From a virus, in IMG/VR virus record IMGVR_UViG_3300006226_001721, positions 10,314 to 74,313 of that record: 64,000 nt of DNA; one strand, given 5' to 3'. The notes under the pieces are model-generated. The model was not told the origin of the DNA. It searched no databases and saw nothing but the letters and a program-made list of their open reading frames with translations. Below, piece by piece: positions 4,093-53,816 of the stretch. Position numbers and translations under genes: made by a program. How positions within the stretch are numbered: position 1 is the stretch's first letter; the number at the start of each line of letters is the position of its first letter.

Positions 4093-4108
4093 ATTTGTAT
4101 ATTAACAT

Positions 4109-9065: not shown

Positions 9066-9607
9066 AGAATCGGCTTCTTCTTTTTGCTTCCAATATTACG
9101 CACTACATTTATGAATTGTTGAAATGTCTTCTTCGGCTGTTCATAAGAAATAGCATCAATAATAGTATCATTGTACTCTTTGCTACTTTTCTTAAAGTTA
9201 TCATTTATAGTCTCTTTAACCAATGACTTTCTACTCTCAGCCATCAACTCATGAGGTCTAATATTGTCCATGTCAACAGCTTCGCGAACTTCTCTAAAGT
9301 CATTCTTAACTCTGTCATAATAGAAGATCCCGCCATAGACACGAAGTGACTCTCTGATGCGGAAAAGAGTGTACTGTCTATCTTTCTCTAACGTTTCATT
9401 TAGAATGTCAGTCATTATCTTCTCAAACTTATCACGTTTGAGATACATCTTGATACTACCATCATCTAAGACAACCCTAACATTATCACGCAATGGATTG
9501 ACTATCCATACTATAAAGATGAACTGGTCAAAATACTCTTTAGTTTCTAATATGCGCTTGGGTTCTAATAGACCTTCTGGGTTGACTTGTTGATTACTGT
9601 CTGACAT
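9062..9607 (-). CDS. Hypothetical protein
   Basis: ORF downstream of the methyltransferase with GGAGG SD. Confidence 0.6.
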   Translation of the reverse strand: MSDSNQQVNPEGLLEPKRILETKEYFDQFIFIVWIVNPLRDNVRVVLDDGSIKMYLKRDKFEKIMTDILNETLEKDRQYTLFRIRESLRVYGGIFYYDRVKNDFREVREAVDMDNIRPHELMAESRKSLVKETINDNFKKSSKEYNDTIIDAISYEQPKKTFQQFINVVRNIGSKKKKPIL

Positions 9608-10889
9608 CTGTCCTCCAAAATGCTTGTTTAGTTGGATGAATATTGTCGTGGAACATTATGCCGAGCTCACCAGCTTTAGGCCAGTTTTCTAATACTCGTT
9701 TGCACTCATTGATCCAAAAGTATGCCGTGCCAACTGGAACATTCTGACCAATGACAGAACCAAAAGTGAAGCGCGTATGTTGATACTCAAAGTCTGCGGG
9801 GAGTCCCATTAGATGCATATACTCACGGAATGTCAAACATCTATCTTCTTTAGGATGAAGTGCTGACCAACTATTACCATGATAGACAGTGGGGAACTTC
9901 TCATTGCCAACTGAAAAGAACGACCTATCAAAGTAGCCTTTTTGAATAGCACGCTTACTGATGCAATAGTCATAATGCGCTTTAAGTTTGGCGTCTTCGT
10001 GGAACTTATAGAACTCATCTGACAACTTGTTAGCTATTATGAAGCTTTTGAAGCGACATCGTTCAACGGTATCTCTCCAGTTAGGCCCGAACTTCTTCTT
10101 TAAGAATTTGAACTCTAAGTTCTCAGTGACATCATTTAAGATATGCTCCGCGCTATTTTGACTGGCCTTTTTTGGAATCTTAGCTAGGTACTCTAACACA
10201 CCAGCTTCTTTAGCTTGTTCATAATTCAACATAGGAGGAGCTATTCCTTTCCAAAAGATAACGAATGTTCTAGGTCGACTTTGTATGTTGTGGTGTAGAT
10301 TAGTGTCAGTCTTTATGTAAGTAACTGAGTAGCTGTTAGCCATTGCGACATCATTAAGATACTCTCTAACTAAGTTCCCCTTATTGGTGTACAACCCAGG
10401 CGCATTCTCAAAGATATAGACTTTTGGCTTAATGCTTTGTAAGACATATTTAGTTAAGAACTTAAGATTGTTGTTCTTAGAGCTATCTAATTTGCCGTGA
10501 TCTTGCGTGTTAGCACCAGATAGGCCACTACAAACTGGCACTGCACAAACTAAGTCTATCTCACCGCCCTTATAGTTGTCTAATTGCTTGAGATCAAATG
10601 GGCTACTATACTCATTGTCATTTTGATAAGTTACTGGTGAACCCCATTCGTAGTCAAACATGCCATGGGTGAATTGAATGTAAGGCGGAAGTGATTTCTT
10701 CTTCTTTAGATACTCGAGTAAGTGTCGTTCGTTACCCATGTTGATACACTTACCATCTTTGTTGAAAATCTTTTGTTCGAGACCAGGATATGATAGGATC
10801 CATTTAGCTGGATTCTTAAATGCTTGTTCAGCTGCCACATACATTCCACCAGTTAATGGTTGAATTGCCGCCCATTGTAATGTACTCAT
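9594..10889 (-). CDS. dcm: DNA cytosine-5 methyltransferase
   Basis: PLTGGM (motif I variant), PVCSGLS (PC), FENAPGL (ENV), QSRPRTF, LTFREYMHLMGLP, IGQNVP. Confidence 0.85.
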   Translation of the reverse strand: MSTLQWAAIQPLTGGMYVAAEQAFKNPAKWILSYPGLEQKIFNKDGKCINMGNERHLLEYLKKKKSLPPYIQFTHGMFDYEWGSPVTYQNDNEYSSPFDLKQLDNYKGGEIDLVCAVPVCSGLSGANTQDHGKLDSSKNNNLKFLTKYVLQSIKPKVYIFENAPGLYTNKGNLVREYLNDVAMANSYSVTYIKTDTNLHHNIQSRPRTFVIFWKGIAPPMLNYEQAKEAGVLEYLAKIPKKASQNSAEHILNDVTENLEFKFLKKKFGPNWRDTVERCRFKSFIIANKLSDEFYKFHEDAKLKAHYDYCISKRAIQKGYFDRSFFSVGNEKFPTVYHGNSWSALHPKEDRCLTFREYMHLMGLPADFEYQHTRFTFGSVIGQNVPVGTAYFWINECKRVLENWPKAGELGIMFHDNIHPTKQAFWRTDVRQ

Positions 10890-10921: not shown

Positions 10922-11329
10922 TTAGGGTGCGCTATTCCTAACTTGTGGTCTAGGGTGCTTTGGATAGTCTTTGGTTTCTTCATCTGTTAGTGTTCTAAAT
11001 CCTTGTCCTAAAGCTTGCTCTAACCAATACGATGTGTTTCTATAGTACTTCTTAATGACATCTAACACTGGTCCAGTTTGGGCTTTATGTTTCCACAAGA
11101 ACTTTTTGAGAATGATAACCGGTTCATTATCACCAAACATAACAAAGCTATCTTTTGACTTACTAACTACGTCTTCGATTTCCTGTTTAAGATCACCAAT
11201 AAAGTCCCACACTTCATATTGTAAGTCCATGTCTTCTGGATCACCGCCAATAGCCTTAATCATCTCTTGACATACTGCTCTAGGTGGTGCCTCTTTTCCT
11301 TCTTTTAGAATCTGAGTGAATGACTTCAT
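10922..11329 (-). CDS. Probable capsid-internal protein
   Basis: N-terminus MKSFTQILKE|G resembles the T4 capsid targeting sequence MKTYQEFIAE. Confidence 0.45.
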   Translation of the reverse strand: MKSFTQILKEGKEAPPRAVCQEMIKAIGGDPEDMDLQYEVWDFIGDLKQEIEDVVSKSKDSFVMFGDNEPVIILKKFLWKHKAQTGPVLDVIKKYYRNTSYWLEQALGQGFRTLTDEETKDYPKHPRPQVRNSAP

Positions 11330-13110
11330 TAGTTGCTCCTTAATGGTGTTGCCAAGAACGGAATGACTTTTCGTCGAATGATCTCTGGTACTAAGTCGTT
11401 GGATAGCTTATTCATATAGGCCTTGTCTCCAACATCTAACTCTCTACCATCAACACGTTCTGCTCTATCCATAGCATATCGTTCCCATGCTGATACGAAC
11501 TCATCAAACATACGGAAAGTGAGCTTACGATTGATCTCGATTGGTTTGCCAAATACTGGCTTATTAGCTTTCCAAGATTCAATAGCAATACCTATTACGG
11601 TGTAGACGCACTTTTTAGCCCAGTCACGAACTTGTGGGCTAGCTTGACTACCTTCACCAATACGAGCTAATCCGCCATAGATCTTTCCAAGTCGTTCTAG
11701 GAATTGGTCTAATGTCAACTTAACTTCAACGGCTTCAACACGGTCTAATACGGCACTATTGATATCGTTCATTTCTAAGTTAGACACAAAGATTACAGAT
11801 GAGTTGAATAAGAACCTTCTAGGGAAGGTGGCGTTCTCATCACCTTGTTCAGTCGCACCAGAAGCCTTCATTGACTTCATTGCTTTGATGTCGTCTTCTT
11901 CCATACCTTCATATTCGTCTGGTTCTTCTTGACCTAATAGATCATCTAATAGTTCCTTATTGGTAGCTTCTCGTAAGTAGCGAGTTGATTTAGCGTGAAT
12001 GTTGCTATATGTTCTTTCGTCTTCTCGTAGTGGACGAATGCGATTTTGTAAGTCGTGTGATTCTTGTAGCGAGATCATTTTGTCTACAACAGGTTCACCA
12101 TCGATTGATAAGCGGAAGCGATTCTCACGGAGGGCCTCAGTGTCTATCTCAAATAGAACACCTTCCTGTAGTTCGTCGCCTTCATCTAAGTCATCTAATC
12201 TGGCTTGGAAGATCTTCAACATATTAGCACGAACAGTAATTGGCTTTTCAGTTGCTGACTTAGGATCGAGTAAGCCTTTCATAATGTTCATAATGTCCTG
12301 AGACAAGCCTTTCATAATCATCTTGTCATTGTCGTCTAATACAATGACTTTGTTCTGTGAGTGCTTATAGAAGAATGGCACCAATGTGCTCATTGATGAT
12401 CCAATGTCACCTGCTTCATACACATAGCCCGCTTTAGTTGGACTTTGTGGCATGTATCGTTTGCATGTTTCCATGACTTCATAAGTTTTGCCAATACCAG
12501 GATCGCCATATACGATAACATGGCGCTTATCTGTTTTGCGTAAGATAGTGTTCTTACACATGTTGTGGATCTCTTGGAACGTTTCTTCAGCTGTACCTTT
12601 GACACTAGCATTGCCGTATTTAGTAGTAAGATCAAGCGCTTGTTTTGCATATTCTCCTTCTTCATACACTTCAGGTCTTTCGTATGGTCCGGCTTGTTTT
12701 GAACCTTTTGCTGCTTTGACTTCGCCACCAGTCGCGTAGCCCTTTCCTAATGTGGAGAACTGTTTGTCTCCACCAATGTAGCCGTGACCTTCTAACCAAG
12801 TTAAGTCCTTTTTGAAGGTAGCTTCAGTTGTACCAGGGTGTGCCCATTCAGAAGCCATGAAGCCTTTGAATGTTGGGTTGTCAGTGTTATTAGCATAAGC
12901 GGCTATCATATCGCCTCGCTTAGCTTCTCGTAGCTGCATTTGAGCTTCCCTATTAGCTAAAGCCTCTCGGCGAACTTCAGGGTCTTTTCTTTCATCATAA
13001 ATTGTGCCAGTAGCAGTTGTTGGTTCAGTTGGCTCAGGTGCCAGTTCGTCTGGAGTGACGGGTGATCCACCCTGCTCCAAATCCTTTAAGTATTCTAAGA
13101 AATCGTTCAT
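11329..13110 (-). CDS. AAA+ ATPase
   Basis: Walker A GDPGIGKT, Walker B VIVLDDND, FVSN and LDRVEA sensor/Arg-finger region. Confidence 0.8.
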   Translation of the reverse strand: MNDFLEYLKDLEQGGSPVTPDELAPEPTEPTTATGTIYDERKDPEVRREALANREAQMQLREAKRGDMIAAYANNTDNPTFKGFMASEWAHPGTTEATFKKDLTWLEGHGYIGGDKQFSTLGKGYATGGEVKAAKGSKQAGPYERPEVYEEGEYAKQALDLTTKYGNASVKGTAEETFQEIHNMCKNTILRKTDKRHVIVYGDPGIGKTYEVMETCKRYMPQSPTKAGYVYEAGDIGSSMSTLVPFFYKHSQNKVIVLDDNDKMIMKGLSQDIMNIMKGLLDPKSATEKPITVRANMLKIFQARLDDLDEGDELQEGVLFEIDTEALRENRFRLSIDGEPVVDKMISLQESHDLQNRIRPLREDERTYSNIHAKSTRYLREATNKELLDDLLGQEEPDEYEGMEEDDIKAMKSMKASGATEQGDENATFPRRFLFNSSVIFVSNLEMNDINSAVLDRVEAVEVKLTLDQFLERLGKIYGGLARIGEGSQASPQVRDWAKKCVYTVIGIAIESWKANKPVFGKPIEINRKLTFRMFDEFVSAWERYAMDRAERVDGRELDVGDKAYMNKLSNDLVPEIIRRKVIPFLATPLRSN

Positions 13111-13138
13111 AGTAATTAGTTACAATAGACTAACTATT

Positions 13139-13744
13139 ATGAGTAAAGGTATTGTAATTGCAGATATCGATGACACAATGATCAAAGCAGAAGCAGGAGA
13201 TATCGGCATTTGGAAGCTAAAAGATGGTAAAGAGACTCGCTTATCAACAGATGATTTCGCTAAAGATCCAGACAAAGATGATCCAAAGGTCAAATTTGAC
13301 TATCGAGAATTCAACGATCCAGAAAAGGTAAGAGATAGTATCATTAATGGCACACCTTTACTTAAGAACTTAAAGATCATAGACAACTATTTGAGCAAAG
13401 GATTTGACTTTGCTTTTCTAACAGCTCGAGGTAGTGAAGATGTCATTAAAGAAGTGATGACTTCGTTCTTAAAAGACAGAGATAAAGATGGTCATCTTAA
13501 GCATATAGGTGATAAGTTCAATAAGACTCTCTCATTTGCCGTTAGTGATGAAAAGTACTGTGAGATATTAGACGGCATTAAAGATTTTGATAGAAAGGCT
13601 AAAGTCATTAAGACAATAGCTGAAATGTATGATAATGTTGCTTTCATCGATGATGATATTAGGAATCTAGTAGCAGTTAAGAATTTGCATTTACCAAATG
13701 TGAAGATAATTCGATCATTGAAAGAATCTACAGACCAAACTTAA
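13139..13744 (+). CDS. HAD-superfamily phosphatase/nucleotidase-like protein (start moved to 13139)
   Basis: IADIDDT, LTARG, K, FIDDD motifs. Confidence 0.7.
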   Translation: MSKGIVIADIDDTMIKAEAGDIGIWKLKDGKETRLSTDDFAKDPDKDDPKVKFDYREFNDPEKVRDSIINGTPLLKNLKIIDNYLSKGFDFAFLTARGSEDVIKEVMTSFLKDRDKDGHLKHIGDKFNKTLSFAVSDEKYCEILDGIKDFDRKAKVIKTIAEMYDNVAFIDDDIRNLVAVKNLHLPNVKIIRSLKESTDQT

Positions 13745-14600
13745 ATCCAGTCTTTAACTCGTGTTCATATCCAGGTGGGCAAGGTACTACATCTCTGCCC
13801 GTAGCATTCATAACAGCACAAACACCATGCTTCCATCCTATTTCACCTGGCCATTTCTTATTCAGCCAGCGCCAAACTTCAATGTGTTGTTCATTGTCAT
13901 TTTCGTTCCAACAAATAGAACTCTTTTGCATATGATCTTTCTCGCCTGTTTTGTACATAGCATTCACAAAGCGTATAGTCTTACCATATAGCCGCTTCTT
14001 TCCGATCTGCATAGACAAGTCGTTATCTTCACCTCGCCCTCCAGGTGCTGTTACATCAAAGTTGATGTTGTGCTTAGCTAATATGTCTATGTTAAGACCA
14101 TAACAGCCGGCTATCAATGTCTTAGTAGACTTTTGAACTAATCGCATGTCTTCTTTGATCGCAAAATTGATGAAGCCCATAGTAACTGGCTTAATGAATG
14201 CGTCTTGTTGTATGTCGAGGAACTGCTCCATTGTAGCAAAGAATGAAGCCATGCTAATGTGCATCGTTTTCTTATTAGTATTCTGAGTTATGAATCGACG
14301 ATAATCATCATCAACAGACCAATAGAAATGATAGCCATGCTCTTTTAGCCAGTTGAACATAAAGTGCCGCTTTTCAGCTATGTTGTATCGAGGGTGATAG
14401 ACTAGCTCATTCTCTTCTGAGTAAGTGCCTCGTTGGTCTTCATCTAAAAAGACTATAAGCTTAAGTCCACATTCTTTAGCTAACTGAAATGTCCGACCAT
14501 TCGGCCGACCTCGAGAAGGAACTACTACTGGGTGAATGGGCTTGCCGTCTATGATATGATCGAGATGGTTAAATGCCACGGCGCTTTCCTGCTCTGACAT
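13728..14600 (-). CDS. GT-A fold glycosyltransferase, phage DNA-modifying (TAGT/GREB1-like) type
   Basis: VVVPSRGRP, NIAEKRHF, WSVDDDY, GEDNDL pattern. Confidence 0.55.
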   Translation of the reverse strand: MSEQESAVAFNHLDHIIDGKPIHPVVVPSRGRPNGRTFQLAKECGLKLIVFLDEDQRGTYSEENELVYHPRYNIAEKRHFMFNWLKEHGYHFYWSVDDDYRRFITQNTNKKTMHISMASFFATMEQFLDIQQDAFIKPVTMGFINFAIKEDMRLVQKSTKTLIAGCYGLNIDILAKHNINFDVTAPGGRGEDNDLSMQIGKKRLYGKTIRFVNAMYKTGEKDHMQKSSICWNENDNEQHIEVWRWLNKKWPGEIGWKHGVCAVMNATGRDVVPCPPGYEHELKTGFKFGL

Positions 14601-15276
14601 ATGTGTCTTTCTTACCGAAGTATTTGGTATCTAACTTATAGAGTGTTTCAAATTCGCTATCAAACCAAGCTAAAAGTTGTTCGGCTTTTTCTTCGTTCTT
14701 TATACAGTGAATCTCTATAGCAAAGTATTGCACACTCTTTGGCAACTTAGTCCAGTCTATTGTGTATTCTCCACCTTCAGTGTCGCACTTAATGATAGTT
14801 GGCTTGTACTTCTTAAACTCATCATAGAAGTCTACTGTCTTAACAGTAATCTCTTTGCGACCTTTAGTTGGGATGATACTGTGTCGTCCCATGCATTGCT
14901 TTTTGTTGGGCTTTCTTTCTGTGATATAGAACTTAGTTTCACCATTGCTATCAGTAACAGCTACATTGTTCAATATGACTCTTGTTGGATCTAATTCCTG
15001 TTCAGAAAGTACTAGAAAATTCTCAGGTTCTGGTTCGTAACTTATGACACGCTTAGCACCCGCCTTGAGTGAAAGAAAGGTGAACATACCAATGTTAGCC
15101 CCAATATCCATTACAGTATGTCCTTCACAAACTTCAAAAATAGCCTTGTATTCTCTGAGTTCTTTTAGAACATCGATATCTAATGTGTCAGGACGATATT
15201 TGAAGCCTGTCTTTTCATCTGTTGCTATTATGAGTTCATTCACAAGTTGAGTCTTTTCTCCAAACTTATATGCCAT
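14569..15276 (-). CDS. FkbM-family SAM-dependent methyltransferase
   Basis: VMDIGANIGMF, SYEPEPEN, NVAV, IKCDTEGGE. Confidence 0.85.
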   Translation of the reverse strand: MAYKFGEKTQLVNELIIATDEKTGFKYRPDTLDIDVLKELREYKAIFEVCEGHTVMDIGANIGMFTFLSLKAGAKRVISYEPEPENFLVLSEQELDPTRVILNNVAVTDSNGETKFYITERKPNKKQCMGRHSIIPTKGRKEITVKTVDFYDEFKKYKPTIIKCDTEGGEYTIDWTKLPKSVQYFAIEIHCIKNEEKAEQLLAWFDSEFETLYKLDTKYFGKKDTYVRAGKRRGI

Positions 15277-16181
15277 TAGTTACTCCCAAAATGAAAGCCA
15301 GCATTCTTGGCCTTCTCTGATTTACGAATGTTGTGTGCATTATTTAGTACATCTTCTTTCCAATGTTCATATGTGTCTACTCGATATGTCCAAAATCGGG
15401 GATGATAAGACTTACTCATAGATGGCGCGACATCAATAATGTTGACTTTCAACTTGATTAGTGTGTTAGCGTGACCGTGTTTCTTATAGAGTTCATATCC
15501 TAACATTGAAGCTTTATCATTCCCGGCGGCTGCAATGCTCTTCCCAACTGTTTCGCTATCCTGTGTACCAGATTTGATAATGGCATATTCATTGAATGTT
15601 TGTGGTAAGATTCCCATTTTCCGCATTTCAAGAGCAAAGTCAAAATCGTCCCAAGTTGCAACACCTGTTTCAAATGTTGGTACTATTCCATATCTTTCTT
15701 GATAGATTTTCAAATTAAAGTAGATACATGAATATGGAATTTGATTAGAGTACTTTTTGCCAGTTTTAAGTTTGAAGCGCTTAAAGTTGGCTCCTATGAT
15801 TCCGCCATATACTTCTTCAAAGTTAGGAAGTGCAGCCCGCTTTTCATATTTGAGTGGCTCATCATCTTTCATATTTGCAGCGTCATACTTATTGAAGCCA
15901 GTAATATCATCATCTATAATGAGTAACTGTTCATAACCATTATCTATTGCATATCGTATTATGTTATTACGAATCGTTGGTACAACGGGTGTCTTAAAAG
16001 GGCCGCCATCATCCATTAGAATACCAATTTTAGGATCTAAGTTCCAGTCTGGATATCTATTAGTTGGATAGAACACTATCATATCTTGTGTTTTGTTAGT
16101 TTGGAATGTTAGAAAATCACTATCATATATTTTAGACTTTGGTCCATTTCCAGCTAAAACACCTATCATTAATTTCTTCAT
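15276..16181 (-). CDS. Second GT-A fold glycosyltransferase (TAGT/GREB1-like)
   Basis: PTIRNNII, LIIDDDI, WDDFDFAL pattern paralleling 13728..14600. Confidence 0.5.
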   Translation of the reverse strand: MKKLMIGVLAGNGPKSKIYDSDFLTFQTNKTQDMIVFYPTNRYPDWNLDPKIGILMDDGGPFKTPVVPTIRNNIIRYAIDNGYEQLLIIDDDITGFNKYDAANMKDDEPLKYEKRAALPNFEEVYGGIIGANFKRFKLKTGKKYSNQIPYSCIYFNLKIYQERYGIVPTFETGVATWDDFDFALEMRKMGILPQTFNEYAIIKSGTQDSETVGKSIAAAGNDKASMLGYELYKKHGHANTLIKLKVNIIDVAPSMSKSYHPRFWTYRVDTYEHWKEDVLNNAHNIRKSEKAKNAGFHFGSN

Positions 16182-16570
16182 TTAAATTCTTCCTCATTCT
16201 TTATAGTTTCATATCCATAAGCAACAGCTTTCAATATCTCTTCTTCAATTACTTTAATACTTTGATGATAATTCTTATATGAATCTGGCAAATAATCTTC
16301 TCTACTCATTTTAGTTACTTTATGTATTGCCTCCAATTTCTTTTTAAGACTTAACAAGTCATTTATATTTTTTCCAATGTTATCTAATATTATCTCAACA
16401 TTAGATTTTGTTGTCTTTTTAGATGGCGGAACTTTTGCAAATGCTTTTTTGATTGAACGCTCATCTTCTTCTCCAATAAGATCTTCTGGATCTATTTTTT
16501 TAAATGTGGTAGATTCTACTCCTGCTAATAAAGCATCAATTTCATCTTGACTTAGAGATCCGTCACTCAT
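16178..16570 (-). CDS. Protein with a FliM/FliY-type N-terminal CheY-binding peptide
   Basis: MSDGSLSQDEIDALLAGV contains LSQxEIDALL; remainder is not FliM/FliY-like. Confidence 0.65.
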   Translation of the reverse strand: MSDGSLSQDEIDALLAGVESTTFKKIDPEDLIGEEDERSIKKAFAKVPPSKKTTKSNVEIILDNIGKNINDLLSLKKKLEAIHKVTKMSREDYLPDSYKNYHQSIKVIEEEILKAVAYGYETIKNEEEFK

Positions 16571-16585
16571 AGGCACAATTTTATA

Positions 16586-16888
16586 TTAACTGTACAAATC
16601 TCTAAAGTCGTCATCAAAAGAAGATTTCTTCTCTTGCAATGAAAATTCTTCAAAATCTAAATCTAATGTTTTAACTTCTATATTTTTGATTTCTTTAATT
16701 GTTTTCAAATCTTTTTTAATTTCTTCTTTTATATTTTTCTTTTTTGGTATTGTTATAGAGTCTTTATATCGAAATCTATGATATAAAAACTCTATTAAAT
16801 AACAAAGAATAAAAAGACAAAGAAATGTAATAATTAAACAAGCAAAAATATAATCAATTATCCCGAACATACTCCTCTTCTGAAGCAT
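16586..16888 (-). CDS. Small membrane protein
   Basis: N-terminal hydrophobic helix. Confidence 0.55.
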   Translation of the reverse strand: MLQKRSMFGIIDYIFACLIITFLCLFILCYLIEFLYHRFRYKDSITIPKKKNIKEEIKKDLKTIKEIKNIEVKTLDLDFEEFSLQEKKSSFDDDFRDLYS

Positions 16889-17032
16889 AAATCATTTTAT
16901 TTTCTTCATATAATTTGACTAAAATTTTATATAATTCTTCTTGTTTTTGCTTATTTAATTCTATAATTCCTACTGGTGTCTTAAATTCATTAATCCAATA
17001 TTCAATTCTGTCTGTCATTTTGAGTGCTCCTT

Positions 17033-18424
17033 TTAAAGATTATCAATAATTTCTTTTACTGTTTTTTGTGATTGCTCTATAACTTGATCCATATTAAGAT
17101 ACTGCCAAGAACCTTGTCTTCCAGTAAAATAAATATTTGAATTATTAAAATAATCAAATATTATTTGTTTGTTTTTCTGTTGATCTAAATCATTTATTAC
17201 ATAAGCATTATTAAAATCAAAAGTTTCTATTGTTTTTATTTCTAATTTTCCAAATAATTTTTCTAATCCTTCTGTAATTTTTTTAGGATAATATCCTCTA
17301 ATAAATGTAGGACTATCATCTCTTTCTGTGACTTCTGTCATAAATGTAGTTGTTCCTGAATTATGATAATTTTTTCCAAAAAAATCCAATTTTGAAAATC
17401 TATGAAATTTTATACCAACATCAGCCGAATAAAAAGCAAAATTATTTCCTCCAATATCTCCTTCAATAGTTACTATTCCAATATTTATTTTATTGGAAAT
17501 TAATTTTTGTGCTGTTTCTTTTACTATTTTATGATTAGTATCATAATTTTTTACAAATGTTGTTAATGGAATTGTATTTATTAAGATATCATAATTATAA
17601 CTTAATTCAGTAGTTTCATTAATTGTACTTTTAATTACTACAACAGGTGGTTCATTTTTATTTATTTCTTGTTCTGTTATAGAAGTTTTTCCATCTGTTA
17701 GTCCAAAAGAATGTATTTGTTTTTTAGTAATTTTATGAACTTTTTCATTTAATCGTATTTTAATTTTATTATTTAATTTTTGTGCAAAGGAATCTATAAA
17801 AGTTTTTGTTCCACCAGATTCCGGATAAAAGAAATTTAACTGGTGAAGATAGCCATCGACAGTTTCTCCTTTTAATGATCGTTCTATATCTTCAATAGGT
17901 GGTTTTGGTATTCTTTCTACCATTTGTAAATCCATAAAAGTTGGATCAAACTTCCATATTTTTTCATTATATGGTAATAAATATAATTTTGAAATTCCAA
18001 CTCCAAAAGTTTTAAGAAAGAATTGTCTCATATTAGTTGCTTCATAATTTTCATACGGATTATTTCTAAAAGTAGACTCTACATATTGTTTTTCTCCTTC
18101 AGATAATTTTCCTAAATCATTTTCAAATGGATATTGTAAGTATTTTTTATCATGAATTATTATATTAGAACGTCTATGAACATTAATATTAGGCATCATT
18201 ATATCTTCCATAAAATCTAATGTATCTTTATTTTTAGAAAAGAATATATGAGGACCAATATCAAAAGTTATCCCAGATTTAGACTTAAATGACCTACAAA
18301 GACCACCTAAAGTATCTTCTTTTTCTATAATAATAATTTCATCTATATCAGGATTATCTTGAAGAAAATAAGCCGAACTTATTCCAGCTAGACCTCCGCC
18401 TAAGATAACAACTCTTTTACCCAT
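17033..18424 (-). CDS. FAD-dependent UDP-galactopyranose-mutase-like enzyme
   Basis: GGGLAG dinucleotide motif, GGLCRS, FDIGPHIFFS, YPFEN, PYNEKIW, YPESGGT, GRQGSWQYLNMDQ. Confidence 0.7.
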   Translation of the reverse strand: MGKRVVILGGGLAGISSAYFLQDNPDIDEIIIIEKEDTLGGLCRSFKSKSGITFDIGPHIFFSKNKDTLDFMEDIMMPNINVHRRSNIIIHDKKYLQYPFENDLGKLSEGEKQYVESTFRNNPYENYEATNMRQFFLKTFGVGISKLYLLPYNEKIWKFDPTFMDLQMVERIPKPPIEDIERSLKGETVDGYLHQLNFFYPESGGTKTFIDSFAQKLNNKIKIRLNEKVHKITKKQIHSFGLTDGKTSITEQEINKNEPPVVVIKSTINETTELSYNYDILINTIPLTTFVKNYDTNHKIVKETAQKLISNKINIGIVTIEGDIGGNNFAFYSADVGIKFHRFSKLDFFGKNYHNSGTTTFMTEVTERDDSPTFIRGYYPKKITEGLEKLFGKLEIKTIETFDFNNAYVINDLDQQKNKQIIFDYFNNSNIYFTGRQGSWQYLNMDQVIEQSQKTVKEIIDNL

Positions 18425-18433
18425 TAAAATATC

Positions 18434-19015
18434 CTAATTAAAAGTTATATGTTTGTAACAATCAAAGATAATATGGTCAATAATTAAAGATAAGTCTTCA
18501 AAAATGCCCATATTATTTGTTTCTAGATGAAATGATTTTTTTGCTGTTTCTTTTAACTTTCCACCATTAAATCCAACTATAGCATAAGTAATAGCATTGT
18601 TCTCATTAGCATATTGCATTGCTTTAATTACATTTTTAGAATTGCCACTACCAGAAATTCCCAATACTAAATCTCCTGGTTGTAAAAAGTTCTTTAACTG
18701 TTCAACAAAAATATCATCATAACTAGCATCATTAGCAATGGCTAACATAGTTGGAATATTGTCATTTAAGCAGATCATCTTAAATCGAGTATCATTTTGA
18801 TGATTAGCATAATTCATTCCCTTATTAAAGTCGTTTGCCCAATGTGATGCTGTTGAACCAGAGCCACCATTTCCCATAACAAATATTTGTCGTTTTTCAT
18901 TTCGAGCTTTAATCAACTCTAAAATTAGATCTATAAGAAGAGTATCTTTCTTTTTTAACTCATCTAATTGTGCTTGCAAATCTGCAATATATTTGTGTAC
19001 ATTAGTTATTAGCAT
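18434..19015 (-). CDS. gmhA: SIS-domain phosphosugar isomerase (sedoheptulose-7-P isomerase-like)
   Basis: MGNGGSGSTASH, AIAND..YDDIF.EQL, GISGSGNSKNV, EDLSLIIDH. Confidence 0.85.
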   Translation of the reverse strand: MLITNVHKYIADLQAQLDELKKKDTLLIDLILELIKARNEKRQIFVMGNGGSGSTASHWANDFNKGMNYANHQNDTRFKMICLNDNIPTMLAIANDASYDDIFVEQLKNFLQPGDLVLGISGSGNSKNVIKAMQYANENNAITYAIVGFNGGKLKETAKKSFHLETNNMGIFEDLSLIIDHIIFDCYKHITFN

Positions 19016-19952
19016 TCATTAACTCCTTAATTGCCTTTTTAACTGCATTATCAGAAGATAAATCTAAATCAAATCCAAGTTTGTGCAACTTATCTGTATT
19101 ATATTTGAAAGTATTTAAGTCACCAACCCATCCAATATCTTCTGTTCCATATCTAATTGTGTTACAATTAAATTCAGCCGCGCACCATTCAGCCATATTT
19201 TTGATAGTTGTTGTAGAATTATCCATTGGTGCGACATTATATACATTAACTCTTCTAGATGAACTTATCCACGAATACATAATAGCATCTATCAAATCTT
19301 TAACATGAATATATGGCTTATGCTGTGTGCCATTTCCTAATACTTCTAATTGTGTTGAATCTTTCTTTAATCTCTCTATAAAGTCATAAAGAGCACCATG
19401 TGTCATTCGTGATCCAACTACATTTGGAAATCTTATTATCCAAGCTCTAATATCATAATTGTGAACAAACGATGATATAAAACTTTCTGATGCTAATTTA
19501 GCAGCGCCATAATGAGACACTGGCATTAATGGTCCATGATTTTCTTGAACTTGAAGGCTACCAGTATCTCCATAAATAGCAGAAGTAGATGCGAATACAA
19601 ATTGTTTTATCTTATAGATATCAGCAACACACAACATATCATATGTAGTCTTAAATGTGCGATCAAAATCTATTCGAGGGTTTTTGTGAGATTTAGATAT
19701 ATCTGAATTAGCAGCAAAGTGAAATATCACATCTGATTCTTTTAAGTATTCATTTTCTACATATGATAGTTTGGTGATATCTTGTTGTATGAAAGTAAAT
19801 CTAGGATGCTTAGGATTTATCAGATGAGCGAGATTTTTAAGATTTCCTAATGATAAGTCATCAATACCAATCACGCTATAATCTCGCTTAATAAGTTCGT
19901 CAACTAAATGACTTCCAATAAAGCCCGCAGCACCGGTTACTATACATTTCAT
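19002..19952 (-). CDS. NAD-dependent nucleotide-sugar epimerase/dehydratase (extended SDR)
   Basis: TGAAGFIGSH, FASTSAIYG, YGAAK, RFPNVVG. Confidence 0.9.
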   Translation of the reverse strand: MKCIVTGAAGFIGSHLVDELIKRDYSVIGIDDLSLGNLKNLAHLINPKHPRFTFIQQDITKLSYVENEYLKESDVIFHFAANSDISKSHKNPRIDFDRTFKTTYDMLCVADIYKIKQFVFASTSAIYGDTGSLQVQENHGPLMPVSHYGAAKLASESFISSFVHNYDIRAWIIRFPNVVGSRMTHGALYDFIERLKKDSTQLEVLGNGTQHKPYIHVKDLIDAIMYSWISSSRRVNVYNVAPMDNSTTTIKNMAEWCAAEFNCNTIRYGTEDIGWVGDLNTFKYNTDKLHKLGFDLDLSSDNAVKKAIKELMNANN

Positions 19953-19955
19953 GTT

Positions 19956-20624
19956 CTACTCCAATTCTAACAAATTAGTCAATGTTATTTCTACTGAGGA
20001 TCCTGGCTTGACTATTTTCCAAGGTTCTTGATCTTCTCTATAAAAAGTTGTTGACATTTCATTGTAAGCATTCTTTACTCTAGTTTCAAAAAGAACAGTT
20101 TCATTATCAAATAAGTCATGCTCATTATCTTTTCTATTTCCAACTTTCTCAGGGAAATAATAGATGATATTAGGAATAACGTCCTTATATGGATTTTTGA
20201 ACCAATTTAGCAGATCAATTGCAACTCTTTGACCTTGAGTTTTAGTTAAGTCATCTATTAACTTTTTGCCAAATAACTGATATGCTACAGTAGAATAGGT
20301 GTATCTATCACATATAACTGTTTTGCCTTCTTGTAATGCTGGACGAATAATCTTATCAACACATTCAGCTCTATCTAAAAGAAAGGCAAATAGATTTCCA
20401 TAATCTGATAAGTTCCATCGTTTGTCTTTACACAATGATCTTAATGTTGTAGCTAATGGACCCCAATCTCCACCAGGTTGTCGTGTTAAAATAGTTGATA
20501 TATTGTTTTGACTTAAAGTATCTGCTAATAGTTCAGCAACAGAACTTTTTCCAGTATTTTCGTAACCTTCAAAAACTATAAGTTTTTTAGTAAAATGATC
20601 TATTTGTTTTGGTGTTAAAATCAT
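19956..20624 (-). CDS. tmk: Thymidylate kinase
   Basis: FEGYENTGKS, TRQPGG, LLDRAE, CDRYTYSTVAYQ. Confidence 0.85.
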   Translation of the reverse strand: MILTPKQIDHFTKKLIVFEGYENTGKSSVAELLADTLSQNNISTILTRQPGGDWGPLATTLRSLCKDKRWNLSDYGNLFAFLLDRAECVDKIIRPALQEGKTVICDRYTYSTVAYQLFGKKLIDDLTKTQGQRVAIDLLNWFKNPYKDVIPNIIYYFPEKVGNRKDNEHDLFDNETVLFETRVKNAYNEMSTTFYREDQEPWKIVKPGSSVEITLTNLLELE

Positions 20625-21259
20625 AGGCTTTCATCATATATAGAATTCCAAGCTGTTTCTGTCATATTAAGATTAGTTACCTTATCCTGATAGACATCAT
20701 CTACATCCTTCCCGTCTTCTTTTCTAACATAAAGATTAAGAGCACCCTTAAATTCACTTTTTGGTGTAAAGTTGATATCCTCTGATACTTGAGAACAGCC
20801 AAAGTTCAACTCATCTGCTAAATCACAAATAGTTTTTTGATAGCCTTTCATATTCTCAATAGCTTGCCAAGTTTCATCTACATCATTAACTCTAACATCT
20901 TTATTGCTAACAGTAATTTCAACTCCTTTAGCTTTCAATGCATCAAAGTAGACATCTAACATATCTAATTTGCCAATGGCAGCTAAATCATCTACTATTT
21001 GAAGTAACTTTCTAAATGTTGGTGTTACTCTGTCTGGGAACTTTTCATCAGGATCTCTGCTCAATGGATCATTTCCAACCCAGCCACTTCCTCGGTAATA
21101 AGCATAATCTTTACAACGAATCATAATTGGCTTTTCTATCTTTTGCATTTTAGCCATATCTGCACCAATCATATTCATGTGTTTACTATTAGTCTTTTTC
21201 TCTCTTAAAATTTCGGCTGACTCTTCTAATAGTTCAGCAGGTGTAGTAGTCTGTGACAT
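20621..21259 (-). CDS. Hypothetical protein
   Basis: ORF with GGAG SD and GTTAATATA motif upstream. Confidence 0.6.
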   Translation of the reverse strand: MSQTTTPAELLEESAEILREKKTNSKHMNMIGADMAKMQKIEKPIMIRCKDYAYYRGSGWVGNDPLSRDPDEKFPDRVTPTFRKLLQIVDDLAAIGKLDMLDVYFDALKAKGVEITVSNKDVRVNDVDETWQAIENMKGYQKTICDLADELNFGCSQVSEDINFTPKSEFKGALNLYVRKEDGKDVDDVYQDKVTNLNMTETAWNSIYDESL

Positions 21260-21291
21260 ATTTTATCTCCTTAAATGTCTTTTATTTTATA

Positions 21292-21834
21292 TTAACTATC
21301 ATGATATTGTTCTATATCTATCGAACTTTTAGAATAATGTCCTAAAAGATTAATGATATCTGCACCATTGTATTCTTTAAAATAGCGCTTATTATCTATA
21401 ATAATCTGTCTGTTGAAATTAGTAACTTGGCTTTCTATGTCTCTATCATAATAATGGTCAAAGATGATTCGTTTGATACCAGCAGCAATTACTAATTTAG
21501 CACAATTTTTGCAAGGACAAATAGTAGTGTAGAGAGTTGATCCTTCTGGAGATAATCCGCGCTTTGCTAAATCTAATATTGCGTTCATTTCGGCATGTAT
21601 TTCATATTGTTCTGAAAAAAGATGATGTTCAGATTGTTCTTTGTTATCTCTTAAGTTCTCACAAGCCTCATTACAGTTGATAAATCCGCTGGGTGTGCCA
21701 TTATATCCACAACCAATAATACGATTATCTTTAGTAATAACAGCACCAACTTTTAATCGAGAACATTTAGACTTTTCAGCCATTATTCGAGCAATTTCTA
21801 TAAATGTTTTGTCCCATTCTTTTTGATTAGGCAT
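21292..21834 (-). CDS. dCMP deaminase
   Basis: KVGAVI, GYNGTPSG, HAEMNA, PCKNC. Confidence 0.9.
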   Translation of the reverse strand: MPNQKEWDKTFIEIARIMAEKSKCSRLKVGAVITKDNRIIGCGYNGTPSGFINCNEACENLRDNKEQSEHHLFSEQYEIHAEMNAILDLAKRGLSPEGSTLYTTICPCKNCAKLVIAAGIKRIIFDHYYDRDIESQVTNFNRQIIIDNKRYFKEYNGADIINLLGHYSKSSIDIEQYHDS

Positions 21835-21996: not shown

Positions 21997-22809
21997 CTAT
22001 AATTTATAATAGTCTTGAAATTCTTTAATGATTTTATTTACTAAATCAAAATCTCTTTCATAGACATGTAATGATCCAGCATTCCAATAAATACTTCCAA
22101 TTTCTGGATCTCTATTGCTAAACATTTTGATATCACTTAATAGTTGATTATACACATATCCATGCCATGGAAGATCTCCACAATGTAATCCTCTAATTAC
22201 ATCATTACTTCTCATAGTTACAATGTATTCTAATTTGTTCTTACGAATGAAATGTTGAGTACAAAAAGTACAAGTAAAATCTGATTTAGCATTTACATTA
22301 TCATTCCATTCCCATTGCATTTGAGGTCTGCCATAATAGATGACAGACTGTCTTCCTTCTGGTTTATCACAAAGTTGTTCCAAAGCATATTTATATTGAG
22401 ATTTGCCAATTTTTGCTGGACCTAAGTTCTCTGGACCATTTGGATATCTTTCAGCACCCCAATTATTTCCATTCTCTGGACTAAATACACACCAACCATA
22501 ATTACTATTTACTCTCCCATCATCAGAACATATTTTAGACCAAATAGGATTATCTTCAATACCAGGGTGACCTTTGATACATCTATCTTGACTTAAATAC
22601 CAATTAGTTTCATTTTCAATGTATTTAAGTTGCGGCTTTCTTGCTTCACCTAAATAGAGCTTAGTATCTTGAGCCTCAAATACTAAATTAGCATTCAAAA
22701 TCTCAGCTGTGCCATTTACTAAATCATTTTTTTGAATCTTTTCCCACAATGGAAATAAAGCATTCTTAATTAAATAAATAGAATTTCTACTATATTTTGT
22801 TTGTTCCAT
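21997..22809 (-). CDS. dCMP hydroxymethylase-like enzyme (T4 gp42 family of the thymidylate synthase fold)
   Basis: ENETNWY, NSNYGW, RPQMQ, DFTCT (catalytic Cys), MRSND, GDLPW (Asp at the specificity position), WNAGSLHVY align with T4 gp42. Confidence 0.8.
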   Translation of the reverse strand: MEQTKYSRNSIYLIKNALFPLWEKIQKNDLVNGTAEILNANLVFEAQDTKLYLGEARKPQLKYIENETNWYLSQDRCIKGHPGIEDNPIWSKICSDDGRVNSNYGWCVFSPENGNNWGAERYPNGPENLGPAKIGKSQYKYALEQLCDKPEGRQSVIYYGRPQMQWEWNDNVNAKSDFTCTFCTQHFIRKNKLEYIVTMRSNDVIRGLHCGDLPWHGYVYNQLLSDIKMFSNRDPEIGSIYWNAGSLHVYERDFDLVNKIIKEFQDYYKL

Positions 22810-23338
22810 TTAAAGTTTCCTTTATTATTTCAAATACTTGTTCTGGTGATTTTTGATCTATATTTATTAAACATTTATTTTTTATATTAGATTTTTCGAA
22901 AAAGCTAGAAAAACGATTTATTTCATTTTGTTTTTTCTCAAATTCAACTGAAAATGATAGACCATCTTCTCTCTTTATTAAGTTTTCTGGATTATCTATA
23001 AATACAAATAAAATACAATTTTGTAATACTTTATTTCCAAAATTAGTTTCTATTTCATAAACATATTCACCAGAATAATTTCTATAAATAGGAGAATAAA
23101 CAGTTTCACCTCCATGAGCTCTATCAAAAATTAAATTTTTATTATTATAAGTTGCAAATTTGATTAAATCAAACATTTCTTTATAATATTGTTTGGATCT
23201 TTCTTCTATATTGTTGCCTTTTATTGAAGAATAGTGTAATACATGAACTAATTTATCTTTTTCTTCTAAATACTTTTTAATGTTAGATATTTGAGTTCCT
23301 TTTCCAACATTATCAGGTCCTTCACATACAATTACCAT
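22790..23338 (-). CDS. Second dNMP (thymidylate-type) kinase
   Basis: CEGPDNVGKGTQ P-loop, FDRAHGGE. Confidence 0.75.
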   Translation of the reverse strand: MVIVCEGPDNVGKGTQISNIKKYLEEKDKLVHVLHYSSIKGNNIEERSKQYYKEMFDLIKFATYNNKNLIFDRAHGGETVYSPIYRNYSGEYVYEIETNFGNKVLQNCILFVFIDNPENLIKREDGLSFSVEFEKKQNEINRFSSFFEKSNIKNKCLINIDQKSPEQVFEIIKETLNGTNKI

Positions 23339-29557: not shown

Positions 29558-29844
29558 TAAGATATATTAACTATCTTAAGTTTGTCTAATATTTGGTCCA
29601 TCTTTTTGTCTATGTGTTCTATCTTTATAGTTAATACAGCTACTTCTTTAGAAAGAGCTTCAATTTTATCACCATGCTTTTCTACTATAGTATCTATTCG
29701 CTTATGAGCAGATTCTGTACTCTTTTCTATTTGATTAACTCTGTTATCTAATTTTCCATATTGAGCGCCAAACTTACATAAAGTAAAGATGAATAATGCT
29801 ATAGTAATTCCTAACGTAATAGCTGAAGAAATTGTAATTTCCAT
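29557..29844 (-). CDS. TM helix plus coiled-coil protein (start moved to 29844)
   Basis: Hydrophobic N-terminus, heptad C-terminus, ACTAATTA motif upstream. Confidence 0.5.
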   Translation of the reverse strand: MEITISSAITLGITIALFIFTLCKFGAQYGKLDNRVNQIEKSTESAHKRIDTIVEKHGDKIEALSKEVAVLTIKIEHIDKKMDQILDKLKIVNIS

Positions 29845-51823: not shown

Positions 51824-51852
51824 TATTTCTCCTATAATAGTATATTAACAAT

Positions 51853-53797: not shown

Positions 53798-53816
53798 GTT
53801 ATTTAGTTATATTAAC
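53798..53816 (-). promoter_or_regulatory. Compound promoter upstream of the DUF2828 gene
   Basis: Identical to 52263-52281. Confidence 0.7.

What the first reader, a model, noticed from the sequence alone, without database searches (positions are those of the whole stretch)
13728..16570. GT - FkbM - GT operon led by a flagellar-switch-mimic gene
Four translationally coupled genes (overlapping or abutting stops and starts) follow a GTTAATATA motif at 16582-16590. The two GTs share an R-x(n)-DDD...(E/D)D architecture and sandwich an O-methyltransferase, which suggests sequential glycosylation and methylation of one substrate. The first gene carries a FliM/FliY peptide, so a protein or flagellar target is a live alternative to DNA.
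Basis: partly seen in the sequence, partly recalled or inferred. Interest (0 to 1): 0.6.

Follow-up and report, generated by a model that had tools for sequence, protein, structure and literature searches.

The report
Phage DNA sugar-tailoring operon with FliY mimic
A large uncultured gut phage has a four-gene operon in which two DNA-type glycosyltransferases and a sugar-type methyltransferase most likely decorate its hydroxymethylcytosine DNA, and the first gene encodes a small protein whose tip copies the CheY-binding peptide of the bacterial flagellar switch protein FliY.

Summary
Four minus-strand genes (16576/16570 to 13728) overlap by 4, 1 and 11-32 nt. They follow GTTAATATA, which occurs 9 times in the window against 1.4 expected, always on the coding strand.

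Both glycosyltransferases (GTs) pass the Pfam threshold for TAGT, the DNA-base glycosyltransferase family. Both keep the R...DDD...(E/D)D motif. The model of g4 is a GT-A fold (Z 14) and best resembles phage TAGT models. The gene between them is an FkbM-family methyltransferase.

A TS homologue 6 kb upstream matches T4 dCMP hydroxymethylase and carries the T4 diagnostic residues, not those of RB69-type 5-hydroxy-dCMP synthases. The target is therefore most probably 5-hmC DNA, not flagellin. This operon is the tailoring end of a cytosine hypermodification pathway: two sugars plus probable O-methylation, with UGM-like, GmhA-like and epimerase genes inserted only in this phage.

Six related metagenomic phage lineages keep the GT pair. 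Three of them carry an FkbM gene.

Gene 1 also recurs just upstream of the first GT in four lineages. Its first ~20 residues are up to 90% identical to real FliY N-termini, while the rest of the protein diverges. It is probably a CheY~P decoy.

Both GT families end in a conserved FxFG tail, as does T4 polymerase's clamp-binding tail.

All functions are inferred. Earlier notes of this scan on the same genome reached similar readings.

The parts
16582..16590 (-). GTTAATATA promoter-like motif, resembling an extended -10 element (G-n-TAATAT); it also contains the TAA stop of the upstream gene
   Evidence: 9 copies against 1.44 expected, all on the coding strand. The flanks show terminators before two copies and start codons 5 nt after five copies. 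The same motif lies upstream of the g1 homologue in L024, and 5-6 nt before four genes in L021.
16178..16576 (-). g1: small protein (130-132 aa) with a FliY-type N-terminal CheY~P-binding peptide, an acidic linker and a helical C-terminal part
   Evidence: No Pfam or PHROG family. Homologues lie just upstream of the g2-like GT in L019/L020, L021/L022, L023 and L024/L025. 11 of the 20 invariant columns fall in residues 7-18, at 26-34% overall identity (A9). Residues 1-21 are up to 90% identical to metagenome genes, and the two I opened are bona fide FliY.
15276..16181 (-). g2: divergent TAGT-family glycosyltransferase ending in ...GFHFGSN
   Evidence: Pfam TAGT 34.4 bits against a cut-off of 27.5. 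hhalign of its family against the g4/TAGT family gives 97.4%, E 1.2e-11. Eleven relatives at 32-65% identity; 10 of the 11 end in an F-x-F-G tail, and P0043, which ends early, is the exception (A7). The AF2 model is poor (pLDDT 51.7).
14569..15276 (-). g3: FkbM-family SAM-dependent methyltransferase
   Evidence: Pfam Methyltransf_21 47.5 bits, TIGR01444 70.5 bits, phrog_8156. The DIGANxG SAM-binding motif is present. It is 40% identical to the FkbM gene beside the GT pair in L005.
13728..14600 (-). g4: TAGT-family GT-A glycosyltransferase ending in ...GFKFGL
   Evidence: Pfam TAGT 46.8 bits. The AF2 model has pLDDT 83.7. It matches GT-A enzymes at Z 12-14 over 200-240 residues and phage TAGT models at TM 0.61-0.68. 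The family profile against the T6 beta-glucosyl-HMC-alpha-glucosyltransferase gives 96.6%, E 6.8e-10.
21997..22809 (-). T4-type dCMP hydroxymethylase (5-hmdCMP synthase), which supplies the acceptor base
   Evidence: PDB 1b49 E 1.8e-35 against ThyA 2.6e-6. The alignment with T4 gp42 and RB69 gp48 shows the catalytic Cys, the acidic residue three positions before it, RSND as in T4 (RB69 has RSQN), and Asp at the N177 position (A8).
19956..21834 (-). Tmk-like kinase, a conserved 212-aa gene and a dCMP deaminase; with the second kinase-like gene at 22790-23338 they form the nucleotide arm of the pathway
   Evidence: Pfam. The same genes occur in the same order in L019-L024.
17033..19952 (-). UDP-galactopyranose-mutase-like flavoenzyme, GmhA-like sugar-phosphate isomerase and SDR epimerase/dehydratase: a sugar-donor tailoring block found only in this phage at this position
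   Evidence: PDB 4dsg 4e-25 and 1x92 9e-18. GalE and RmlB models score about 124 bits. Relatives carry a QueC-like gene at this position instead.

Best explanation
The stretch is the tailoring end of a cytosine hypermodification pathway of a large phage. Shown by sequence: a T4-type dCMP hydroxymethylase, two nucleotide kinases and a dCMP deaminase lie 3.4-7 kb upstream. Two divergent TAGT-family GT-A glycosyltransferases (g2, g4) flank an FkbM methyltransferase (g3). All are co-directional, overlap one another, and sit behind a recurrent promoter-like motif. Inferred: 5-hmdCTP is built into phage DNA. One TAGT enzyme puts the first sugar on the 5-hydroxymethyl group, and the other extends it, as the TAGT enzyme of T2/T6 extends glucosyl-hmC to gentiobiosyl-hmC. 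The FkbM enzyme O-methylates a sugar hydroxyl using SAM. The UGM-like, GmhA-like and SDR genes directly upstream alter the donor sugar, so a furanose and/or heptose-derived sugar is possible. This block is a lineage-specific swap, because relatives carry a QueC-like gene and a radical-SAM gene instead. Both GT families end in a conserved F-x-F-G tail like the clamp-binding tail of T4 DNA polymerase (...LDFLFG). This suggests they ride the sliding clamp, as T4 alpha-GT does. Gene 1 is a separate, conserved passenger at the head of the operon: a helical scaffold carrying a near-exact copy of the FliY N-terminal peptide that docks CheY~P. It most likely acts as a decoy that titrates CheY~P, or another receiver domain, in the infected cell.
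For: TAGT membership of both GTs. GT-A fold of g4. Invariant R/DDD/ED motif. FkbM membership. dCMP hydroxymethylase with T4 diagnostic residues, unlike RB69 gp48 (criteria from PMC13326640). Synteny in related phage contigs. L019/L020, L023 and L024/L025 run SNF2 helicase - kinase - TS-like - deaminase - kinase - g1-like - g2-like TAGT - second TAGT-like - radical SAM. L021/L022 has the same block plus an FkbM gene after the radical-SAM gene. L005 runs MetK - FkbM - TAGT - TAGT - radical SAM - AAA - C5 methylase. Tandem TAGT domains also occur fused in single proteins (P0009, P0026). No alpha-GT or beta-GT family member was found in the 94-kb record, so a TAGT enzyme must take the first step if the DNA is glycosylated. 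Precedents from papers: TAGT adds the second glucose in T2/T6 (PMC13390438, PMC13216743); a phage UGM lies in a DNA glycosylation cluster in RL38J1 (PMC13326640); alpha-GT binds gp45 (PMC13216743). The T4 gp43 C-terminus was read here. F-x-F-G tails occur in both TAGT families, in all but two of the members found. g1: the peptide is conserved against a diverged body, it is near-identical to real FliY, and motile gut Clostridia related to the likely host clade have fliM-fliY-cheY.
Against: The phage is uncultured, its host is unknown and the record is about 29% complete. No sugar kinase or nucleotidyltransferase was identified, so the donor is undefined. The g2 model is of low confidence. FkbM enzymes have no known DNA-linked substrate. 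The methyltransferase is missing in three of six related lineages and could act on the NDP-sugar or on something else. A C5 DNA methylase 3 kb downstream (9594-10889), also present in L005, hints at a second route to modified cytosine. No clamp or polymerase gene lies in the record, so the tail idea rests on resemblance alone. In L024/L025 a 7-nt insertion interrupts the FliY-like peptide. GC3 jumps from 0.17 in g1 to 0.30-0.41 in g2-g4.
Confidence: 0.65

Rival explanations
1. The GT-methyltransferase-GT module glycosylates a protein or cell-surface glycan, for example flagellin or another flagellar component, and g1 targets it to the flagellar switch.
For: FkbM methyltransferases occur in flagellin glycosylation islands (PMC5109656). 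The eukaryotic TAGT-related GT domain of GREB1 glycosylates a protein (PMC7968844). g1 carries a FliY peptide. The UGM-, GmhA- and SDR-type genes are typical of surface-glycan pathways.
Against: Both GTs match the phage DNA-GT family and the T6 enzyme. The module is syntenic with a dCMP hydroxymethylase, kinases and a deaminase in five related loci. No signal peptide or membrane anchor is evident in the GT sequences, and the g4 model shows none. g1 is separable from the GTs in L021 and L005.
Confidence: 0.07
2. g1 is not a chemotaxis decoy. It is an accessory subunit or adaptor of the DNA-modification machinery, for example one that binds the GTs' F-x-F-G tails or links them to replisome proteins.
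For: Its position is conserved immediately upstream of the g2-like GT in four lineages, often overlapping the GT start. The L021/L022 homologue ends in DDDDIPF, a copy of the SSB C-terminal tip that recruits replication and repair proteins.
Against: All these loci are syntenic relatives, so adjacency is weak evidence. The promoter-like motif lies between g1-like and the GT in L021. There is no g1 beside the GTs in L005. The most conserved part is a near-exact FliY peptide, whose only known partner is CheY~P. A second phage-like contig (L129) fuses the same peptide to a FliG C-terminal domain, which points to the motor.
Confidence: 0.2
3. The GTs act on DNA, but the acceptor is not 5-hmC. It could be 5-hydroxycytosine, 5-hmU, or oxidised 5-mC made through the neighbouring C5 methylase.
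For: TS homologues can make 5-hydroxy-dCMP (PMC13326640). A C5 DNA methylase homologue lies 3 kb downstream, here and in L005. A dCMP deaminase is present.
Against: The TS homologue keeps Asp at the D169 position (RSND) and Asp at N177, exactly as in T4 gp42. RB69 gp48 has RSQN. No Tet_JBP match was found in the record.
Confidence: 0.08

Closest known systems
T2/T6 beta-glucosyl-HMC-alpha-glucosyltransferase and the Pfam TAGT family (PF20691)
   Same: Same family by HMM, profile-profile comparison and predicted fold. Same R...DDD...ED motif. Same genomic partnership with a gp42-type dCMP hydroxymethylase. A role in building a disaccharide on 5-hmC is plausible.
   Different: There are two very divergent TAGT paralogues (no pairwise BLAST similarity) and no GT-B alpha- or beta-GT to place the first sugar. 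Both carry a C-terminal F-x-F-G tail that the T6 enzyme lacks. Identity to any catalogued phage is too low for tblastn.
Arabinosyl/galactosyl 5-hydroxycytosine clusters of RB69, DLP3 and Rhizobium phage RL38J1 (PMC13326640)
   Same: A TS homologue, a dNMP kinase, several DNA GTs and phage-encoded sugar-donor genes (SIS isomerase, epimerase, and a UGM in RL38J1) are clustered together.
   Different: Here the TS homologue has the T4 (hydroxymethyl) signature, not D169N. The GTs are TAGT type. An FkbM methyltransferase is part of the module. No NTP-transferase or sugar kinase was found.
FkbM-family O-methyltransferases of glycan pathways (TIGR01444), for example in flagellin glycosylation islands
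   Same: Family membership above the curated cut-offs. The gene is embedded between glycosyltransferases and next to sugar-nucleotide genes.
   Different: The context is a phage DNA-modification cluster. I found no paper that links FkbM enzymes with DNA glycosylation.
N-terminal CheY~P-binding peptide of FliM/FliY
   Same: g1 residues 1-21 are up to 90% identical to real FliY N-termini, at the same N-terminal position, including the LSQxEIDALL core.
   Different: g1 has no FliM middle domain, no CheC/CheX domain and no FliN C-terminal domain. It is a 130-aa helical protein found only in this phage clade. It mimics the peptide and is not a switch protein.
Clamp-binding C-terminal tail of T4 DNA polymerase gp43, and gp45 binding by T4 alpha-GT
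   Same: An aromatic-x-aromatic-Gly motif at the extreme C-terminus (T4 ends ...LDFLFG). There is precedent for a DNA GT that binds the clamp (PMC13216743).
   Different: The tails here are basic (KKFRFG, KFKFGKL) whereas the T4 tail is acidic. No clamp gene is available to test. T4 alpha-GT is a GT-B enzyme, and how it binds the clamp was not examined here.

Membership tests
TAGT (PF20691), DNA-base glycosyltransferases | Match to the family HMM above the gathering score | tested here: met
   g4 46.8 bits and g2 34.4 bits against a cut-off of 27.5. Six-frame search of the record finds the same two genes.
TAGT (PF20691), DNA-base glycosyltransferases | GT-A (nucleotide-diphospho-sugar transferase) fold | tested here: met
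   g4 model pLDDT 83.7. Z 12-14, rmsd 3.4-6.5 A, 187-242 residues aligned to GalNAc-T2, GlfT2, RmlT and TarP. TM 0.61-0.68 to phage TAGT models. For g2 the result is inconclusive because its model has pLDDT 51.7.
TAGT (PF20691), DNA-base glycosyltransferases | Conserved Arg, DDD (DxD-type metal/sugar-nucleotide site) and a downstream acidic pair | tested here: met
   R78, D97-D98-D99 and D192 are invariant in g4, g2 and relatives. They align with the WMIDDD and CED motifs of the T6 enzyme.
TAGT (PF20691), DNA-base glycosyltransferases | Genomic association with a source of 5-hydroxymethylpyrimidine (TET/JBP or a TS-like hydroxymethylase) | tested here: met
   No Tet_JBP match. A T4-type dCMP hydroxymethylase lies in the same syntenic block.
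TAGT (PF20691), DNA-base glycosyltransferases | Sugar transfer to 5-hmC or glycosyl-hmC in DNA | not testable with these tools
   Needs enzyme assays or nucleoside mass spectrometry.
T4-type dCMP hydroxymethylase (5-hmdCMP synthase) | Catalytic Cys; acidic residue at the ThyA L143 position; Asp kept at D169; Asp at N177 | tested here: met
   KSDFTC, RSND and GD in the window protein, as in T4 gp42. Criteria from PMC13326640.
5-hydroxy-dCMP synthase (RB69 gp48 type) | Asn replacing Asp at the ThyA D169 position | tested here: not met
   The window protein and all four relatives have Asp. RB69 gp48 has Asn (RSQN) in the same alignment.
FkbM-family methyltransferase (PF05050 / TIGR01444) | HMM match above the cut-offs and a glycine-rich SAM-binding motif | tested here: met
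   47.5 bits against 22.7 and 70.5 bits against 37.7. The DIGANIG motif is visible in the translation.
FliM / FliY flagellar switch proteins | N-terminal LSQxEIDALL CheY~P-binding peptide | tested here: met
   Present at residues 6-15 (ATG 16570 start). Up to 90% identity over residues 1-21 to metagenome genes; the two opened are FliY.
FliM / FliY flagellar switch proteins | FliM middle domain, CheC/CheX phosphatase domain or FliN (SpoA) C-terminal domain | tested here: not met
   No Pfam family for g1 at E<=0.1 except a sub-threshold coiled-coil hit. A genuine FliY scores FliMN_C and CheX in the same test.
T4-type sliding-clamp-binding C-terminal tail | Hydrophobic aromatic motif at the extreme C-terminus, plus a cognate clamp | tested here: inconclusive
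   F-x-F-G is conserved in both GT families, in all but two of the members found, and in T4/T6 gp43. No gp45-type clamp or DNA polymerase was found in the 94-kb, about 29% complete record.

The most novel reading that the evidence does not exclude
This phage clade writes a so far undescribed cytosine modification: a disaccharide on 5-hmC that includes a furanose or heptose-derived sugar and carries an O-methyl group. Two clamp-tethered TAGT enzymes install it. The same clade also carries a new class of host-tail mimic, a helical scaffold that displays the FliY CheY~P-binding peptide and, in one relative, also the SSB C-terminal tip, to hijack or silence receiver-domain and SSB-partner proteins during infection.
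Probability: 0.25. Interest if true: 0.8.

Novelty: new variant of a known kind. Interest (0 to 1): 0.62.

Why it matters
Phage DNA hypermodifications decide which restriction, CRISPR and type IV systems can cut a phage, and they supply enzymes for epigenetic sequencing. All glycosylated cytosines described in the papers I read carry unmethylated glucose, arabinose or galactose units. A methyltransferase embedded between the DNA GTs, and recurring in three related lineages, predicts an O-methylated sugar on DNA. That is directly testable by heterologous expression.

The swap of donor and tailoring genes between relatives (UGM/GmhA/SDR against QueC-like/radical SAM) shows a modular cassette in which sugar chemistry is exchanged around a fixed GT pair.

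The FliY-peptide protein would be, as far as my literature searches show, the first phage factor aimed at the CheY-switch interface. It also offers a short, portable CheY~P-binding reagent.

The conserved F-x-F-G tails give a concrete handle on how post-replicative DNA glycosylation is coupled to the replisome.

Tried and rejected
- Megablast of 13000-17000 and tblastn of g4 against 50,697 catalogued phages found no match.
- Pattern scans of IMG/VR with g4, the g2 family and the g1 family found no close relatives. Only 19-31% identical TAGTs appeared for the g4 family.
- Word-indexed protein searches for g4 and g1 found only the window's own proteins. Relatives came from the exhaustive HMMER search and from a profile of the g2 family.
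- PDB sequence searches found nothing for the TAGT profile, the FkbM protein or the HAD-like gene at 13136-13744. For g1 they found only coiled coils.
- The g2 AlphaFold model was too poor to search.
- The ESM Atlas search with g1 gave only weak leads. The best score was 0.87, and a cluster with 14% FliM members scored 0.85.
No binding or transcription test was possible.
- No gp45 clamp, family A or B DNA polymerase, alpha-GT, beta-GT or Tet_JBP was detected in the 94-kb record. The record is incomplete, so these are not absences from the phage.
- Pfam and PHROG searches of the two other ORFs with aromatic-x-aromatic-Gly tails (45471-47882, 57950-58432) gave nothing.
- I first read the GC3 step at the g1/g2 junction as a sign that the low-GC block was a recent insertion. 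I rejected this because relatives share the whole gene order.
- Host identification was not settled. The phage NAPRTase is closest, at 43-47% identity, to gut and rumen Clostridia. The FliY peptide type most like g1 was seen in fliM-fliY operons of a different gene order.

Full report
**The stretch**

The window is part of a 94-kb IMG/VR virus record, estimated to be 29% complete. It carries 16 tRNA genes and a tmRNA.

Between 16576 and 13728 on the minus strand lie four ORFs:
- g1, 132 aa from GTG 16576, or 130 aa from ATG 16570
- g2, 301 aa
- g3, 235 aa
- g4, 290 aa

The junctions read ATGA (g1/g2) and TAATG (g2/g3). g3 and g4 overlap by 32 nt, or by 11 nt if g4 starts at a GTG preceded by AGGAAAG.

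No terminator-like site lies inside the stretch. g4 ends against a convergent HAD-like gene.

**The motif**

GTTAATATA occurs nine times in the window, always on the coding strand, against 1.44 expected.
- All copies are intergenic or cover the TAA stop of the gene before them.
- Two follow terminator hairpins.
- Five are followed after exactly 5 nt by ATG or GTG, including GTG 16576.
- The motif recurs in related phages. It lies upstream of the g1 homologue in L024, and 5-6 nt before four genes of L021, including its g2-like GT.

The geometry (G-n-TAATAT, then six bases, then the start codon) is that of an extended -10 promoter giving leaderless or near-leaderless mRNAs. This is inference. 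Homologues of g1 begin MSDG..., which favours ATG 16570 as the start and implies a leader of about six bases.

**The glycosyltransferases**

- Both GTs pass the Pfam gathering score for TAGT, the DNA-base glycosyltransferase family. They hit PHROG 842, annotated as beta-glucosyl-HMC-alpha-glucosyltransferase.
- They are too diverged for BLAST to pair them. Their family profiles nevertheless align at 97.4% probability.
- The g4 family profile aligns with the T6 enzyme at 96.6%.
- An alignment of g4, g2 and eight relatives leaves R78, D97-D98-D99 and D192 invariant.
- AlphaFold gives a confident g4 model (pLDDT 83.7, pTM 0.85).
- VIA-align scores that model at Z 12-14 against GT-A enzymes over 200-240 residues (Foldseek).
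- Among viral models the best matches are TAGT-domain proteins (TM 0.61-0.68, E 1e-12 to 1e-9). They include a Klebsiella phage beta-glucosyl-HMC-alpha-glucosyltransferase.
- The g2 model is poor and I did not use it.

**The methyltransferase**

g3 is an FkbM-family methyltransferase by two curated models.

**What the GTs act on**

A TS homologue at 21997-22809 scores only 45 bits against the thymidylate synthase model. It matches T4 dCMP hydroxymethylase at E 1.8e-35, against 2.6e-6 for ThyA.

A 2026 paper shows that some phage TS homologues make 5-hydroxy-dCMP instead. These are marked by Asn at the ThyA D169 position. Asp at N177 marks dCMP use, and an acidic residue at L143 marks a non-methyl product (PMC13326640).

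In my alignment the window protein and four relatives have RS(N/L/G)D, as T4 gp42 does, while RB69 gp48 has RSQN. All have Asp at N177 and an acidic residue before the catalytic Cys. The predicted product is therefore 5-hmdCMP.

Two Tmk-like kinases and a dCMP deaminase flank it. No alpha-GT, beta-GT or Tet_JBP family member was detected in the record.

**Related loci**

The exhaustive HMMER search and a profile search found relatives only in metagenomes.

- L019/L020, L023 and L024/L025 run: SNF2 helicase, kinase-like, TS-like, deaminase, a 21x-aa gene, kinase, a QueC-like gene, a small gene, a g1 homologue, a g2-like TAGT, a 248-251-aa gene and a radical-SAM gene. On alignment the 248-251-aa gene is a second, very diverged TAGT with R, DDD and ED.
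- L021/L022 has g1-like, g2-like, g4-like, radical SAM and then an FkbM gene.
- L005 has MetK, FkbM (40% identical to g3), TAGT (44% to g2), TAGT (about 35% to g4), radical SAM, an AAA protein and a C5 DNA methylase. The last two genes match the window's 11329-13110 and 9594-10889.

Conclusions from this comparison:
- The GT pair is fixed in all six lineages.
- The FkbM gene is an optional tailoring gene, present in three of the six lineages and always within two genes of the GTs.
- The UGM-like, GmhA-like and SDR genes sit at this position only in the window phage.
- Tandem TAGT domains also occur fused in single proteins.
- A phage UGM inside a DNA-glycosylation cluster has a published precedent in Rhizobium phage RL38J1.

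**The tails**

- Every g2-like protein found except one (P0043, which ends early) ends in ...KKF(R/K)FG plus 0-3 residues. g2 itself ends ...GFHFGSN.
- The g4-like and second-TAGT proteins end in ...F(K/T/S)FG plus 0-3 residues, except P0005.
- T4 and T6 DNA polymerases end in ...LDFLFG. From established T4 biochemistry, which I recall and did not test here, this is the clamp-binding tail.
- T4 alpha-GT co-purifies with the gp45 clamp (PMC13216743).
- The T6 TAGT enzyme has no such tail.

I infer that the GTs of this clade are tethered to a common partner, most simply the clamp. No clamp gene lies in the record, so this remains open.

**Gene 1**

g1 has no known family. Homologues lie directly upstream of the g2-like GT in four lineages. 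Overall identity is 26-34%, yet 11 of the 20 invariant columns are residues 7-18, SQxEIDALLAGV.

A metagenome scan found 297 tblastn matches, most covering only residues 1-21 to 1-26 at 69-90% identity. The two I opened are fliY genes in motB-fliL-fliM-fliY-fliP operons whose products start MSDGALSQDEIDALLAGVDS. One of them was confirmed to carry CheX-like and FliN C-terminal domains.

FliM and FliY of gut Lachnospiraceae carry the same core, and cheY follows fliY there. g1 lacks every other switch-protein domain. It mimics the peptide and is not a switch protein.

Three further points bear on its role:
- The L021/L022 homologue, which appears to start at ATT, also ends in DDDDIPF, a copy of the SSB C-terminal tip.
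- In L024/L025 a 7-nt insertion splits the peptide.
- A phage-like termite-gut contig (L129, next to a SAM-lyase gene) encodes a 99-aa protein that joins the same peptide to a FliG C-terminal domain.

These findings favour interference with the chemotaxis-motor interface, as a CheY~P decoy, over a role in DNA glycosylation. An adaptor role is not excluded.

I found no paper on a phage-encoded CheY-binding mimic, or on FkbM enzymes in DNA modification.

Points in favour of a protein or flagellar target:
- FkbM genes occur in flagellin glycosylation islands.
- The TAGT-related domain of GREB1 glycosylates a protein.

Points against, which outweigh them:
- family membership of both GTs
- the match to the T6 enzyme
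- conserved synteny with the hydroxymethylase arm

**Open points**

- The GC3 step at the g1/g2 junction, from 0.17 to 0.30-0.41, is unexplained.
- So is the role of the nearby C5 methylase.
- The host is not identified.

Noticed in passing
window 15276-15296 and 13728-13748 (C-termini of g2 and g4); L005, L019-L025: Both TAGT families end in a conserved F-x-F-G tail (GFHFGSN, GFKFGL, KKFRFG, FKFGKL), in all but two of the members found. It resembles the C-terminal clamp-binding tail of T4/T6 DNA polymerase (...LDFLFG). The T6 TAGT enzyme lacks it.
   Followed up: partly
L021:9432-9986 and L022 (g1 homologue): This homologue carries the FliY-like peptide at its N-terminus, apparently behind an ATT start. 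It also has an extra C-terminal tail ending in DDDDIPF, a copy of the bacterial SSB C-terminal tip.
   Followed up: partly
L129:4998-5297 (termite-gut metagenome contig, 46.9 kb): A 99-aa ORF joins the same FliY N-terminal peptide to a FliG C-terminal domain (Pfam E 1e-25). It lies next to an S-adenosylmethionine lyase family gene, so this is a second, unrelated flagellar-switch chimera on a phage-like contig.
   Followed up: partly
window 4098-4106, 16582-16590, 21288-21296, 24409-24417, 29563-29571, 51841-51849, 52273-52281, 53808-53816, 56998-57006: GTTAATATA is a strand-specific promoter-like motif. Five copies sit exactly 5 nt before a start codon with no Shine-Dalgarno, which suggests leaderless or near-leaderless mRNAs. 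The motif is shared with related phages (L021, L024).
   Followed up: partly
window 16178 / 16181 boundary: GC3 steps from 0.06-0.24 in g1 and the 12 kb upstream of it to 0.30-0.41 in g2-g4, although relatives share the gene order across this point. A recombination breakpoint between mosaic relatives is possible.
   Followed up: no
window 9594-10889 and 11329-13110; L005:5272-8519: A C5 cytosine DNA methylase homologue and a 593-aa AAA/STAND-like ATPase lie just downstream of the GT module, here and in L005. This is odd for a phage predicted to replace C by 5-hmC.
   Followed up: no
L004, L005, L019-L025: A radical-SAM (SPASM-type) gene sits next to the second TAGT in every relative but is missing from the window phage. 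A QueC-like gene stands where the window has its sugar genes. The tailoring chemistry seems to be swapped as cassettes.
   Followed up: no
L024:9605-9660 and L025: A 7-nt insertion in the g1 homologue puts a stop after MSDGALSQDE. The gene call restarts at a GTG inside the peptide. The FliY-like pattern is missing from both loci; the insertion itself was read only in L024.
   Followed up: partly
window 13136-13744 (+): A HAD-type phosphatase-like gene (DxDxT motif, weak PHROG hit to polynucleotide kinase) converges on g4 and overlaps its end by 17 nt. A role in sugar-phosphate processing is conceivable but unsupported.
   Followed up: partly
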